Below, one piece after another: positions 5,339 to 25,039 of a stretch of 64,000 nucleotides of DNA. Position 1 is the first letter of the stretch. Each line of letters starts with the position of its first letter. The DNA comes from the human T2T-CHM13v2.0 reference genome, Homo sapiens: NCBI RefSeq assembly GCF_009914755.1, contig NC_060927.1, one strand, 5' to 3'. A model generated the notes under the pieces. It was not told the origin of the DNA and ran no database searches. It was given only the letters and a program-made list of their open reading frames with translations. The position numbers and the translations under genes are program-made.

Positions 5339-6577
5339 CTACTTGAACTATTTAGTTTACTTTTCAAGAGATTATGGAACAAAGTATACTTTTTACCATT
5401 TTTGATTCACTGGTAATGAGCTCACTCATAAACTCTAGAAAGGTAAACTAAACTGTTCAAATAGTAAAGTAGAAATATCTTTAGGAAAATTGTTATAAGA
5501 TAATCAAAATATTTATGTAGAGATAAGATTCCAGTTAGTATGGTGCTTCAATGATATATTGGAAAATAGGTTTGTTCAGTTATTTAGGGGAAGTGACTTT
5601 TTTTTTTCTCCTTTAAGTTTTATCTCCTTTTTAGGGAGGTTAATATAACTTGTGATATTTTTGATAACTACTCTTACTCTTCAATATAATATTCTTTATA
5701 AGCTTTCAGCCTATTAAATTTTTTAATTGAATGATAATTTGGATAGCAATCATTCAGAATATTTTTCTATTCATAAACATTTTTCCTCTTGGTTTTAAGT
5801 TTGCTTGGTTGTCAGTTACTTCTCAAGGCTGTCATAATTTGGAATGGAATAGAGATTGCTAACTCAATCTTAGCTGGCAATCCTCTTTTATATCAGTGAC
5901 ATGACAAAACAAAACTTTCAGCTTGCTTCATCAGACGGTTTTTCTTCTATCACTACTTCCCCAATAGTTATGTTAACAAACAGTTATATAAACAAACTTT
6001 ATCCATTTGTTGCTTCTTTTCAGGAATACTGGTAGTTGATGAAAACAATGAGAGAAATGCCTGCTTCTTTGCGTACACCATAATCTTTCCAAGAGCACCA
6101 AACTGAATGCTATGTGTTTTTGAATGTATCAGTCTAACAGTCAAACCTGGAATAAAACTTTTATTCGAGGTGAAGGCAGTTAAAGCTCAAACTTTGGGAA
6201 CTATAAAATTCCAAATTCAAGGTGACTTTTCTCTAATTGATTTCATTTAAAACAGAACCACTTATTTCAAGAAAATGAACTTGAATAAAATTATAAATAG
6301 GTGAGAGTATGAGTAGGCATGCTATGGTTAATCGATGAGAAACGTAGTCTTTTTATCAGACTAGACATGCTCAGTGAATAAATATGATGAATAGTTAGAA
6401 CCTTTCATAAAATTTCTGAAGAAATAATAGATATTTTAATATATTATTCCATATATATTAGTTTCAAAGACTCTAAGAAAAATCCTAAGATCATAGACTG
6501 TTAGAACAGAGGGTATTTTAGGGAGCATTCAATTCCATCCTCTGTCCTTAGATCCTCCTTCTTGCCCAGGAAAAGGA

Positions 6578-22110: not shown

Positions 22111-22723
22111 CAAGTGTTTTGAAATGATTTATTCTATTCATGTTTGTTAAAGTCTTGCCCAAACACATACTCTAAGTGTGAGAAATGAGGGTACTTCATT
22201 AAAAAAATTTTTCAGGACTAAAATGTAATTTTGATTTTTTTTCTAGCAGACAAAACAAGTGCTGAACACCTAAAGAGATTGGGGAGTTGACAGTTTCAGA
22301 TGAAAAATAAGATGTCAACATCAAGAAGCTATAATTCTTCCAATCCGGTATAAGATTTGAGGATAAGCTGAGTAAAGAAATAATTATATTCCTTGAGATC
22401 AGAAGTATATGTCAGATGAATTTATTCTGTATCCCCAAGTGGCAAATAATGTTCTACAATTCCAAAGTCTCTCATAGCTCTCATTCATGAAAGCCACATT
22501 ACTCTCCCTCACTCTTCCAAAGTATCCTATCCTTCCTGGCCATTTTTAGCTTCTCCTACTGTCTCTTTTTATCCCAGTTGGCTATGAGATTATAAAATCT
22601 TCTCACAGCAAATACATTCAGATGTGACAATAGCAAAAATTTGGGGGTGGTATGGAGTTCTGAGTTTCCTGTTTGGCTAAATCTGGGTTTGGATCCTGGC
22701 TCTGTCACTCACAGCTGGGTGCC

Positions 22724-22943
22724 TATATTAGTCAGAGTTATCTACAGGAGAAGAACTAATAGGAGATTTTATATATCTATATATCTATATCTATATCTAT
22801 ATCTATATATCTATATATATATATATATCCCAACACACAGACTCAAATGTTAATCTCCTTTGGCAACACCTCACAGACACACCCAGGATCAATACTTTGC
22901 ATTTTTCAATCCATTCAAGTTGACACTCAGTATTAACATCACA
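22724..22943 (-). mobile_element. MLT2A LTR (HERV-L 3' LTR), internally deleted, with (TATATC)n/(TA)n tract
   Basis: t(a)tattagtcagagtt...gaactaatagga at one end; ctcctttggcaacacc...caagttgacactcagtattaacatcaca at the other. Confidence 0.92.
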
Positions 22944-23398
22944 AGTCCACCCCTTGTCGAATTGAACCCATACACATCTCCTGAAATCATACATAACTTC
23001 AAATAAAGACAATAATAAGGTCATAATTACACCTAACATACTACAACTCTCCTTCATACAACCAGAAATGCAACAATCCCTAATCCAAATGCTATTACAT
23101 TAAGTTAACACACATAAATGCTGACATGAAGTCATTAAATCTTACGTCACATGATAAAGGAAAAAGGGAATAAAATGAAGATATTTTCTTAGTGCAAGTG
23201 TATACTTGCACAAACATATTTCTAACAAAAGGAGAAGGAAATACTCATGACAATTACAGTCCCCATTTCTGCAGCTGGTCACATGGTCGTAGCTGATATT
23301 GATGACTACCTTGTTCTGCTACCCATTCTGTATTCCCTTTGCCTTCAGCAAGCATCTTGGCAGGTCGTGGTTTTTTCCCCTGGTGGAGTTACCCAACC
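22944..23398 (-). mobile_element. HERV-L internal region, 3' end including polypurine tract
   Basis: Minus strand acaaggggtggact abuts the LTR tgtgatg; aataaagacaataataaggtcataatta is characteristic of the HERV-L 3' region. Confidence 0.88.
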
Positions 23399-24224
23399 GT
23401 CAGTTCTTGACTTCTGTGCACTCACAGGCTCAACATCATGTGGAAGCTGCCAAGGTTTAAGCCACAGCCCAGCCTCTATGTTGGGCCCTTTCAGCCACCA
23501 CTAGAGCAGCTGGGATGCACCAAGACCTTAGGCTGCACACAGCACAGGGACCCTGGGCCCAGCCCACAAAACCATGTTTTCCCCCTAAGCCTCCTGAGAT
23601 GGGAGGGACTGCCATGAAGACCTCTGATATGCCCTGGAGACATTTTCCCCATTGGCTTGGGGATTAACTTTCAGCTCCTTAGTATTTATGCAAATTTCTG
23701 CAGCCGGCTTGAATTTCGCCTCAGAAAATTGATTTTCCTTTTCTATCACATTGTCAGGCTGCAAATTTTCTGAACTTTTATGCTCTGCTTCCCTAATAAA
23801 ACGGAATGCCTTTAACAGCACACAAGTAACCTCTTGAATGCTTTGCTGCTTAGAAATTTATTCCACCAGATACTCTAAATCATCTCTCTCAAGGTCAAAG
23901 TTCCACAGATCTCTAGGGCAGGGCAAAATTCCTCGTCTTTTTGCTGAGACATAACAAGAGTCACCTTTGCTCCAGTACCCAACAAGTTCCTCCTCTCCAT
24001 CTGAGACCATCTCGTCTTGGATTTCATTGTCCATATCACTATCAGCCTTTTGATCAAAGCTAGTCAACAAATCTCTAGGAAGTTCCAAACTTTCCCATAT
24101 TTTCCTGTCTTCTTCTGACCCCTCCAAACTGTTCCAACCTCTGCCTGTTACCCATTTCCAAAGTTGCTTCCACATTATTGGGTATCTTTTCAGCAGTGCC
24201 CCCACTCTACTGGTACCAATTTAC
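23399..24224 (-). mobile_element. THE1 internal region, 5' ~830 bp
   Basis: gtaaattggtacca leader; decayed MaLR ORF (WNSLEGSEEDRKIWESLELPRDLL, SKGDSCY, CPRDLWNFDLERDDL, AEHKSSENLQPD). Confidence 0.93.
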
Positions 24225-24550
24225 TGTATTAGCCCATTTTCGTGCTGCTGATTTCATACCCGAGACTGGGCAATTTACAAAAGAAAGAGGTTTAATGAAC
24301 TTACAGTTCCACATGATTGGGGAGGCCTCACAATCATGGTGGAAGGCAAGGAAGAGCAAGTTACATATTACATGGATGGCAGCATACAAAGAGATAGCTT
24401 GTGCAAGGAAACTCCCCTTTGTAAAACTATCAGATCTTGTGAGACTCATTCACTATCACAAGAACAGCACTGGGTCCCTTCCACAATTCTTGGTAATTAT
24501 AGGAGCTACAAGATGAAATTTGAGTGGGTGCTCAGGGCCAAATTATATCA
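24225..24550 (-). mobile_element. THE1B-like LTR
   Basis: tgtattagcc...catacccgagactgggcaatttacaaaagaaagaggtttaat...gccaaattatatca. Confidence 0.93.
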
Positions 24551-24708
24551 GTGCCCTTCAGAATGAACTTAACTGATGATTTCCTCAATTACTGAAAAGT
24601 TAGATTAATTAAAGAGCAACAACAATATTTACTTAGTGATAAGTAAATTAAATACTTAATTCTAGTAACAACTCTGTGAAGTAGTTTCCTTTAATATCTT
24701 CATTTGAT

Positions 24709-25039
<331 letters not shown>

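What the first reader, a model, noticed from the sequence alone, without database searches (positions are those of the whole stretch)
22719..24555. Chimeric THE1/HERV-L retroelement with two different LTRs but one shared target-site duplication
Seen: on the minus strand the element runs THE1 LTR (24550-24225), THE1 leader and 5' internal region (to ~23399), abrupt switch to the HERV-L 3' internal region and PPT (to 22944), then MLT2A LTR (to 22724). GTGCC lies immediately outside both ends (22719-22723 and 24551-24555). Removing the element rejoins a MIR: ctggctctgtcactcacagctgggtgcc|cttcagaatgaacttaac...tttcctca. Known: ERVL/MaLR elements make 5-bp TSDs; reverse transcription normally yields identical LTRs; MaLRs lack pol and are thought to borrow ERV-L enzymes. 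Inference: a deletion between two neighbouring insertions would not leave matching TSDs and an intact target, and an RT template switch would give matching hybrid LTRs. The best fit is a HERV-L integrase complex inserting one THE1 cDNA end and one HERV-L cDNA end at a single site, with the inner ends later joined. That would be a physical fossil of MaLR trans-mobilisation. Alternatives are exact reuse of the same 5-bp site followed by deletion, or ectopic gene conversion.
Basis: partly seen in the sequence, partly recalled or inferred. Interest (0 to 1): 0.85.

Follow-up and report, generated by a model that had tools for sequence, protein, structure and literature searches.

The report
One-off THE1/HERV-L recombinant retroelement
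A single ancient insertion on human chromosome 3 carries the front half of a helper-dependent THE1 element and the tail of a HERV-L retrovirus, joined at a short stretch where the two look alike, which suggests that the two once shared the same replication machinery.

Summary
On the minus strand, a THE1-type LTR, PBS and about 820 nt of THE1 internal sequence run into about 450 nt of HERV-L 3' internal sequence, a PPT and an internally deleted MLT2A-type LTR. Canonical termini lie flush against GTGCC on both sides. The flanking dispersed repeat (MIR by recall) is continuous once the element and one GTGCC are removed.

The join is not abrupt. It lies inside a 29-33-nt patch that was the only ungapped 29-mer match of at least 22 among 7.29 million position pairs between one THE1 and one HERV-L internal region.

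Both halves show similar private divergence (0.073 and 0.060). No other genomic place scored holds both halves.

The best reading is a single integration of a recombinant cDNA made in a particle holding both RNAs. That needs one homology-guided minus-strand template switch and a second-strand transfer by the THE1 plus-strand strong-stop DNA. A published HIV-1 model predicts exactly such first-generation proviruses with LTRs of different parentage.

The wider claim, a fossil of THE1 and HERV-L sharing machinery, is partly supported. Orthologues and a genome-wide scan could not be run.

The parts
24551..24555 (.). Target-site duplication copy (GTGCC on +) abutting the THE1 LTR start
   Evidence: direct reading.
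24225..24550 (-). THE1-type MaLR LTR, 326 nt. It is complete from its first base (TGATAT...) to its last (...CTAATACA).
   Evidence: aligns end to end (query 1-326 and 1-323) to the two LTRs (353 and 364 nt) of L017; termini; contiguous with the internal part in other copies.
24199..24218 (-). PBS-like site TGGTACCAGTAGAGTGGGGG, 6 nt after the LTR. Its first 10 nt are identical to the site after the 5' LTR of the HERV-L comparator L029.
   Evidence: The assignment to tRNA-Leu is recalled; PMC3915180 (passages) states that MERVL has a leucine tRNA PBS.
23404..24224 (-). THE1 5' internal region (leader and about the first half of the roughly 1.6-kb internal sequence)
   Evidence: 39 non-self hits at 82-85% identity, all ending at query 766-846 of 925..
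23378..23410 (-). Junction patch where THE1-int and HERV-L-int copies resemble each other (22 of 29, 25 of 33 nt). THE1-type bases lie at 23407, 23402 and 23401. HERV-L-type bases lie at 23400, 23391 and 23389. The crossover lies between 23403 and 23391.
   Evidence: per-position tallies over 9 + 9 copies; patch uniqueness.
22944..23399 (-). HERV-L 3' non-coding internal tail, ending in a purine-rich PPT (AAGGGGTGGA at 22955-22946)
   Evidence: 39 non-self hits at 87-89% identity; contiguous with the LTR in 9 of 9 loci; in L029 this tail follows the dUTPase remnant.
22724..22943 (-). MLT2A-type LTR of HERV-L, with first and last parts present. About 270 nt of the middle are missing and a TA-rich microsatellite occupies 22772-22831.
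   Evidence: L003: window 22828-22724 aligns about 270 nt further on in the comparator; (family D1).
22719..22723 (.). Target-site duplication copy (GTGCC on +) abutting the MLT2A LTR end
22640..22718 (.). Left half of the interrupted old dispersed repeat (MIR by recall)
24556..24640 (.). Right half of the same interrupted repeat
   Evidence: 4 of 5 comparators continue without a gap. Identity over the 60 columns to the right: 21/52 to 27/55.

Best explanation
A THE1 RNA and a HERV-L RNA were present in one HERV-L-type particle, and reverse transcription started on both.

1. The minus strand that began on the HERV-L RNA copied its 3' LTR region, its PPT and about 450 nt of 3' tail.
2. At a 29-33-nt patch resembling THE1 it switched onto the THE1 RNA and ran to the THE1 PBS.
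3. The plus-strand strong-stop DNA made on the THE1 template, carrying a full THE1 U3-R-U5, made the second jump onto that PBS.
4. The finished linear DNA therefore had a THE1 LTR on the left and an MLT2A LTR on the right.
5. An ERV-L-type integrase accepted both ends and made one 5-bp duplication in a MIR.

The element could not replicate again, because the R regions of its two LTRs are unrelated. It therefore stayed single-copy.

Shown: the anatomy, the termini, the duplication, the intact target, the homology patch, the shared PBS type, the equal age of the two halves, and uniqueness among the places scored. Inferred: co-packaging, the order of strand transfers, and whose integrase acted.
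For: - Single integration. GTGCC lies flush at both canonical termini. Controls have 5-bp duplications: THE1 L017 CTTGG/CTTGG and HERV-L L029 CCTGG/CCTGG. The target repeat is continuous with one copy of the 5-mer in 4 of 5 comparators.
- Homology-guided join. The THE1 and HERV-L homologies overlap at 23410-23382. Among 7,289,574 position pairs between the L017 THE1-int and the L029 HERV-L-int, only 2 ungapped 29-mers reach 22 matches, and both are this patch.
- Position of the crossover. It lies near the 5' edge of the patch in plus sense. A minus strand that had just copied most of the patch from HERV-L would switch there (inference).
- Same PBS type in both families.
- Equal age of the halves. 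Private divergence is 0.073 against 0.060 by star least squares and 0.093 against 0.082 by ML.
- Comparator L029 carries RT, RNase H, integrase and dUTPase remnants. The 3' donor family is therefore the enzyme-bearing one.
- The published model predicts this outcome (PMC5651808).
- Precedent: unrelated retroelements recombining at microhomologies with duplications kept (recKoRV, PMC6112702, passages).
- Activity periods overlap. HERV-L was active until about 40-30 mya and THE1 in simians (PMC11359688, passage).
Against: - In cell culture the second-strand transfer is 'generally intramolecular', and initiation on the second RNA is less frequent (PMC5651808, abstract and Discussion). The pathway is therefore a minority one.
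- Nothing here shows co-packaging directly.
- The homology patch would equally serve annealing-based DNA repair.
- One base inside the HERV-L side (23390) is THE1-type in 8 of 9 THE1 copies and in 1 of 9 HERV-L copies. A clean copy-choice does not predict this mosaic, and it needs a later mutation or a source variant.
- In the other THE1 copy tested (L012), the patch does not reach 22 of 29. Shuffles gave a patch that good in 1 of 20 and 2 of 20 trials. The existence of the patch is therefore not itself remarkable.
- No second example was found, and no orthologue could be examined.
Confidence: 0.55

Rival explanations
1. One integrase complex joined the left end of a THE1 cDNA and the right end of a separate HERV-L cDNA to the two sides of one staggered cut. 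The dangling inner ends were then resected and joined by annealing at the similarity patch.
For: One 5-bp duplication with two unrelated LTRs. A microhomology or short-homology junction is what annealing-based end joining would use. Concerted integration of two separate donor molecules is routine in vitro (recalled, not checked here).
Against: About 1.1 kb of THE1 and more than 5 kb of HERV-L cDNA would have to be lost before the one good patch was found. No in vivo case is known to me, and none turned up in searches. The reason given for preferring this model over a reverse-transcriptase switch is wrong.
Confidence: 0.13
2. Two complete linear cDNAs, THE1 and HERV-L, were joined DNA to DNA before integration by single-strand annealing or end joining at the patch. 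The composite was then integrated normally by its two outer ends.
For: The same anatomy and duplication and a junction at the patch. Linear retroviral DNA is a known substrate of cellular end joining (recalled).
Against: Both cDNAs would have to be broken or resected to the patch while the outer ends stayed protected. There is no direct precedent in the papers read.
Confidence: 0.1
3. Two successive ordinary insertions used exactly the same 5-bp site, giving THE1 and a full HERV-L head to tail with a GTGCC between them. A deletion of about 6-7 kb between the two similarity patches then followed.
For: A microhomology-mediated deletion would end in the patch. If both elements used the same integrase, they would share any target preference (inference).
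Against: The second integration must reuse the identical staggered cut. Equal 5-mers alone have a chance of about 1 in 1024, and the target repeat shows no loss or gain. No trace of the intermediate remains.
Confidence: 0.1
4. A resident full-length THE1 suffered a break. It was repaired by copying from a HERV-L elsewhere, entering at the patch and re-annealing at the last roughly 10 nt (GACTAATACA), which THE1 and MLT2A LTRs share.
For: THE1 and MLT2A LTR ends share those terminal bases, and the patch offers the other anchor.
Against: No HERV-L copy stands out as a donor. The best hit is 89% identical against 87-88% for the other 38. The private branch of the HERV-L half (0.060) is longer than those of the comparators (0.034-0.049), so it is not a late copy. 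Two very short anchors are needed.
Confidence: 0.07

Closest known systems
First-generation recombinant provirus from an intermolecular second-strand transfer in heterozygous HIV-1 (model of Cappy et al. 2017, PMC5651808)
   Same: An internal template switch completes the minus strand on the other RNA, and the plus-strand strong-stop DNA of that other RNA makes the second jump. The 5' LTR and the sequence next to it then come from one parent, and the 3' LTR and its neighbour from the other.
   Different: In HIV-1 the parents are strains of one virus and the product replicates on, turning the difference into a U3/R breakpoint. Here the parents are two different element families with unrelated LTRs, the switch uses one short patch, and the product is a dead end preserved as a genomic fossil.
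recKoRV: koala retrovirus recombined with the old retroelement PhER (PMC6112702)
   Same: Recombination between unrelated retroelements at microhomologies. Target-site duplications are kept, which is read as recombination before integration, with co-packaging proposed.
   Different: From recall rather than the passages read, recKoRV1 keeps KoRV LTRs at both ends; the passages read say only that its LTRs are often identical to KoRV LTRs. It spread to many loci. The present element has LTRs of two families and is single-copy among the places scored.
Complex LTR retrotransposons of Triticeae made by template switching between co-packaged RNAs (Sabot and Schulman 2007, PMC1950507)
   Same: An unusual composite element flanked by one 5-bp duplication is taken as proof of a single integration of a cDNA built from two templates.
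   Different: There the outer LTRs are alike and the partners are close relatives (LTR-core-LTR-core-LTR). Here there are two LTRs of unrelated sequence and one internal junction.
Canonical THE1 (MaLR) and canonical HERV-L proviruses
   Same: The 5' half matches THE1 copies from the first LTR base to mid-internal. The 3' part matches HERV-L copies from the tail after the dUTPase to the last LTR base. The duplication is 5 bp as in both families, and the PBS type is shared.
   Different: Neither family's definition is met as a whole. The element has one LTR of each and no coding region.

Membership tests
Integrase-made LTR-retroelement insertion (single event) | Short direct duplication of target DNA flush with both element termini, of the family's usual length (5 bp) | tested here: met
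   GTGCC at 22719-22723 and 24551-24555. Controls: L017 CTTGG/CTTGG and L012 AGGCC/AGGTC matched or nearly matched, and L014 showed none at the predicted ends. L029 has CCTGG/CCTGG.
Integrase-made LTR-retroelement insertion (single event) | Target sequence continuous once the element and one duplication copy are removed | tested here: met
   4 of 5 genomic copies of the flanking repeat align across the rebuilt site without a gap. The fifth (L026) is unrelated on the right side.
Integrase-made LTR-retroelement insertion (single event) | PBS after the 5' LTR and a purine-rich tract before the 3' LTR | tested here: met
   PBS-like site at 24218-24199 and AAGGGGTGGA at 22955-22946.
Integrase-made LTR-retroelement insertion (single event) | Two LTRs identical at integration | tested here: not met
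   The 5' LTR aligns only to THE1 LTRs. The 3' LTR aligns only to LTRs of HERV-L loci. No direct repeat links the two.
THE1 / MaLR element | THE1 LTRs at both ends around a roughly 1.6-kb internal sequence without pol | tested here: not met
   Only the 5' LTR and internal positions up to about 845 of about 1,597 are present.
HERV-L provirus | MLT2A LTRs at both ends and gag, pol and dUTPase between them | tested here: not met
   Only the last about 450 nt of internal sequence and the 3' LTR are present. Comparator L029 shows RVT_1, RT_RNaseH, rve and dUTPase upstream of that tail.
Copy-choice recombinant between co-packaged RNAs | Colinear 5'-to-3' mosaic with the junction at a stretch of sequence similarity and no filler bases | tested here: met
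   The junction lies inside the only ungapped 29-mer pair with at least 22 matches among 7,289,574 position pairs. Diagnostic bases switch between 23403 and 23391.
Copy-choice recombinant between co-packaged RNAs | The two RNAs were in one particle | not testable with these tools
   Inferred only. Shared PBS type and shared LTR end bases fit a shared machinery.
Product of sequential insertion plus deletion | Intermediate state in some lineage, or unequal flanking 5-mers | not testable with these tools
   No primate orthologues are held. The 5-mers are equal.

The most novel reading that the evidence does not exclude
This locus is the first physical record that a MaLR (THE1) RNA was packaged, reverse-transcribed and integrated together with a HERV-L RNA in one particle. 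That would identify HERV-L as the helper of the pol-less THE1 family. It would also be a natural example of a provirus with LTRs of two unrelated families, made by an intermolecular second-strand transfer.
Probability: 0.5. Interest if true: 0.72.

Novelty: new variant of a known kind. Interest (0 to 1): 0.6.

Why it matters
MaLRs make up several per cent of the human genome and have no polymerase or integrase of their own. The reviews read here call them non-autonomous and related to ERV-L but cite no direct evidence for the helper (PMC6466679, PMC3769647, PMC11359688; passages only).

A cDNA built from both a THE1 and a HERV-L template and inserted in one step would be such evidence. It would also give a search image for more cases: mixed LTR pairs sharing one 5-bp duplication, in human and in mouse (MT or ORR1 with MERVL).

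Separately, it would be a natural instance of the intermolecular second-strand transfer that has so far been argued from HIV-1 sequence patterns.

It remains one locus, and the step from 'one integration' to 'one particle' is an inference.

Tried and rejected
- Finding copies of the flanking repeat by BLAST and nhmmer of the rebuilt empty site against the window and held loci gave nothing spanning the site. A whole-genome search with the 124-nt left flank found only itself. A 26-nt pattern with up to 3 mismatches worked.
- A search for extended THE1-int to HERV-L-int homology found only Alu and simple-repeat matches in the flanks within the listed part of the output. The output was cut at 6,000 characters and covered L012-L017. 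The exhaustive ungapped scan is.
- Other copies of the chimera: none spans the junction or holds both halves (40 scored of 7,478 candidates; 40 of 2,430; 40 of 14,979). Only the best candidates are scored, so this is not an exhaustive negative.
- A genome-wide scan for other mixed LTR pairs was not possible.
- Subfamily naming (THE1A-D, MLT2A1 or MLT2A2) could not be done, because no repeat library is held.
- Literature searches for a described THE1/HERV-L or MaLR/ERV-L recombinant returned reviews and expression studies. None of the listed titles or abstracts describes one. Subscription-journal papers, such as the original MaLR and HERV-L descriptions, are not in the library.
- Considered and rejected: L1-mediated or segmental copying of a pre-existing chimera (the 5-bp duplication flush with TG...A termini points to an integrase). 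Also rejected: a read-through chimeric RNA as the sole template (it would lack the THE1 U3 seen at the 5' end).
Full report
**What is there**

Read on the minus strand, the element starts at 24550 with TGATATAATTTGG and ends at 22724 with CTGACTAATATA. The five bases outside each end are the same: GGCAC on the minus strand, GTGCC on the plus strand, at 24551-24555 and 22719-22723.

The first 326 nt (24550-24225) align end to end with both LTRs of a comparator THE1 copy (L017, 353 and 364 nt). They stop with ...CTAATACA as THE1 LTRs do. Six bases later comes a PBS-like site, TGGTACCAGTAGAGTGGGGG. The four THE1 copies read at that point (L012, L013, L014 and L017) carry closely similar sites after their 5' LTR, with one to three substitutions each.

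LTR, PBS and internal sequence are contiguous in other genomic copies up to window 23379-23392 (39 non-self hits, 82-85% identity).

From 23410 (7 of 9 loci), or from 23396 or 23398 (2 of 9), the sequence instead matches HERV-L loci at 87-89%. That match runs unbroken through a purine-rich tract (AAGGGGTGGA, 22955-22946) into an LTR starting at 22943. The 5' LTR of the comparator provirus L029 starts the same way.

That LTR has its first roughly 115 nt and its last roughly 50 nt. About 270 nt of the middle are missing, and a TA-rich microsatellite sits there (22772-22831). Its last bases match the ends of HERV-L LTRs in L002, L003, L007 and L008.

No repeat library was available. What the tools show is family membership by alignment to genomic copies.

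The 3' donor family is the enzyme-bearing one. L029 has both LTRs, a CCTGG duplication on both sides, and remnants of reverse transcriptase, RNase H, integrase core and a dUTPase after the integrase. The part kept in the window is the non-coding tail after that dUTPase.

**Is it one insertion?**

Controls show that both families make 5-bp duplications flush with these termini:
- L017: CTTGG/CTTGG.
- L012: AGGCC/AGGTC.
- L014: none seen at the predicted ends.
- L029: CCTGG/CCTGG.

To test whether the target is intact, I looked for other copies of the flanking repeat. BLAST, nhmmer and a whole-genome search with the flank failed. A 26-nt pattern from the left flank with up to three mismatches found five other places, against none for the reversed control.

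Four of the five continue across the rebuilt empty site (one GTGCC kept) without a gap. Their identity over the next 60 columns is 21/52 to 27/55. The fifth is unrelated on that side, at 7/52. So the two flanks are neighbouring parts of one old repeat, with nothing lost or gained beyond the 5-bp copy. Together with the 1-in-1024 chance of equal 5-mers, this supports one integration.

**The junction is not abrupt**

The THE1 and HERV-L homologies overlap at 23410-23382. Per-position tallies over nine copies of each family show that the two families resemble each other here, at 22 of 29 positions, or 25 of 33 if extended.

- The window carries THE1-type bases at 23407, 23402 and 23401.
- It carries HERV-L-type bases at 23400, 23391 and 23389.
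- The crossover therefore lies between 23403 and 23391, around a run that is identical in both families.
- One base on the HERV-L side (23390) is THE1-type. Two bases (23399 and 23397) fit neither family.

In an exhaustive ungapped comparison of one THE1 internal region (L017, 1,597 nt) with one HERV-L internal region (L029, 4,674 nt), 7,289,574 position pairs were compared. Only two 29-mers reach 22 matches, and both are this patch. A patch that good appears in 1 of 20 shuffles, so its existence is not remarkable. In another THE1 copy (L012) it falls below the threshold. That the join sits exactly on it cannot be chance, so the join was guided by sequence similarity.

**Age and uniqueness**

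| Half | Private divergence, star-model least squares | Private divergence, ML terminal branch | Comparators, star model |
|---|---|---|---|
| THE1 half | 0.073 | 0.093 | 0.049-0.063 |
| HERV-L half | 0.060 | 0.082 | 0.034-0.049 |

The two halves are equal within my rough sampling-error estimate of about 0.01, and both are longer than the branches of their comparators, which were picked as best hits. The two halves have thus evolved alone for about the same time. The HERV-L half is not a late copy of a surviving donor, since no hit stands out: the best is 89% against 87-88% for the rest.

A review places the end of HERV-L activity in primates at about 40-30 mya and THE1 amplification in simians (PMC11359688, passage). 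The two families could therefore have met.

No other place among those scored spans the junction or holds both halves (40 scored of 7,478, 2,430 and 14,979 candidates). This is not an exhaustive negative.

**Mechanism**

The 5' LTR is a complete THE1 LTR including its U3. A single chimeric RNA cannot be the template, because U3 of the 5' LTR is copied from the 3' end of an RNA. Two templates, or two cDNAs, are needed.

That is not so if reverse transcription starts on both RNAs. Cappy et al. (PMC5651808; abstract, Discussion and Fig. 4 legend read) describe this case. The minus strand is completed on the other RNA after an internal switch. The plus-strand strong-stop DNA of that other RNA makes the second jump. 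The resulting provirus has discordant ends and would show a U3/R breakpoint only in the next generation.

Applied here, the sequence of events is:
1. The minus strand started on HERV-L RNA and copied its 3' LTR region, its PPT and 450 nt of tail.
2. It switched to THE1 RNA at the patch and ran to the THE1 PBS.
3. The THE1 strong-stop DNA supplied the 5' LTR.

The crossover lies near the 5' edge of the patch in plus sense. A minus strand that had just copied most of the patch would be expected to switch there (inference). Both families have the same PBS type, and their LTRs end in the same roughly 10 bases. This fits one primer and one integrase for both.

The product cannot make the first jump in a further cycle, because its two R regions are unrelated. 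That fits its being single-copy.

Precedents:
- recKoRV has microhomology junctions between unrelated elements, with duplications kept and co-packaging proposed (PMC6112702, passages).
- Plant composite elements use one 5-bp duplication as proof of a single integration of a two-template cDNA (PMC1950507, abstract and Results read).

**Against this reading**

- The second-strand transfer is generally intramolecular in culture, and initiation on the second RNA is less frequent.
- Co-packaging is not shown.
- The patch would serve annealing-based DNA repair just as well.

The remaining rivals rank lower for these reasons:
- Exact reuse of the 5-bp site followed by deletion needs an improbable coincidence.
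- Templated repair from an ectopic HERV-L, using the patch and the shared LTR end, lacks a visible donor.

I put about 0.55 on the reverse-transcription route and about 0.8 on any pre-integration origin.

**Comparison and novelty**

The element is not a member of THE1 or of HERV-L as defined. It has one LTR of each and no coding part. It works like a copy-choice recombinant, and like the first-generation product of an intermolecular second-strand transfer. It differs from every example read in having LTRs of two unrelated families.

Four literature searches listed no description of a MaLR/ERV-L recombinant. The library lacks most subscription-journal papers, including the original descriptions of both families.

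Reviews call MaLRs non-autonomous and related to ERV-L without citing direct evidence for the helper (passages only). If the pre-integration origin holds, this locus is such evidence, but it is a single locus. Primate orthologues and a genome-wide scan for mixed LTR pairs are the decisive checks, and neither could be run here.

Noticed in passing
window 24199-24218 (minus); L029 3250-3266; L012, L013, L014, L017: THE1 copies carry a PBS-like site right after the 5' LTR. Its first 10 nt (TGGTACCAG plus the preceding T) equal those of a HERV-L copy. One review read here states that MaLRs lack a PBS (PMC3769647, passage).
   Followed up: partly
window 22772-22831: A TA-rich microsatellite (TATATC-like units) replaces about 270 nt of the middle of the MLT2A-type LTR. 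Intact copies have a short TA run just before the LTR's last roughly 40 nt, so the array probably grew from it.
   Followed up: partly
window 22724-22735; L002, L003, L007, L008, L017: THE1 and MLT2A-type LTRs end in the same roughly 10 bases (GACTAATACA). In the window and in 2 of the 4 HERV-L comparators read, the last bases are ...ATA instead of ...ACA.
   Followed up: partly
window 23397-23403: Two bases at the crossover (23399 and 23397) fit neither family (0 of 9 and 1 of 9 copies in each). 23403 is a minority THE1 variant (2 of 9). This could be later mutation or errors made at the switch. The count is too small to judge.
   Followed up: no
window 24709-25000 (minus strand reading): An Alu-like dimeric repeat lies about 150 nt beyond the THE1 end of the element. 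It matches Alu-like stretches in the flanks of several fetched loci and is not part of the finding.
   Followed up: no
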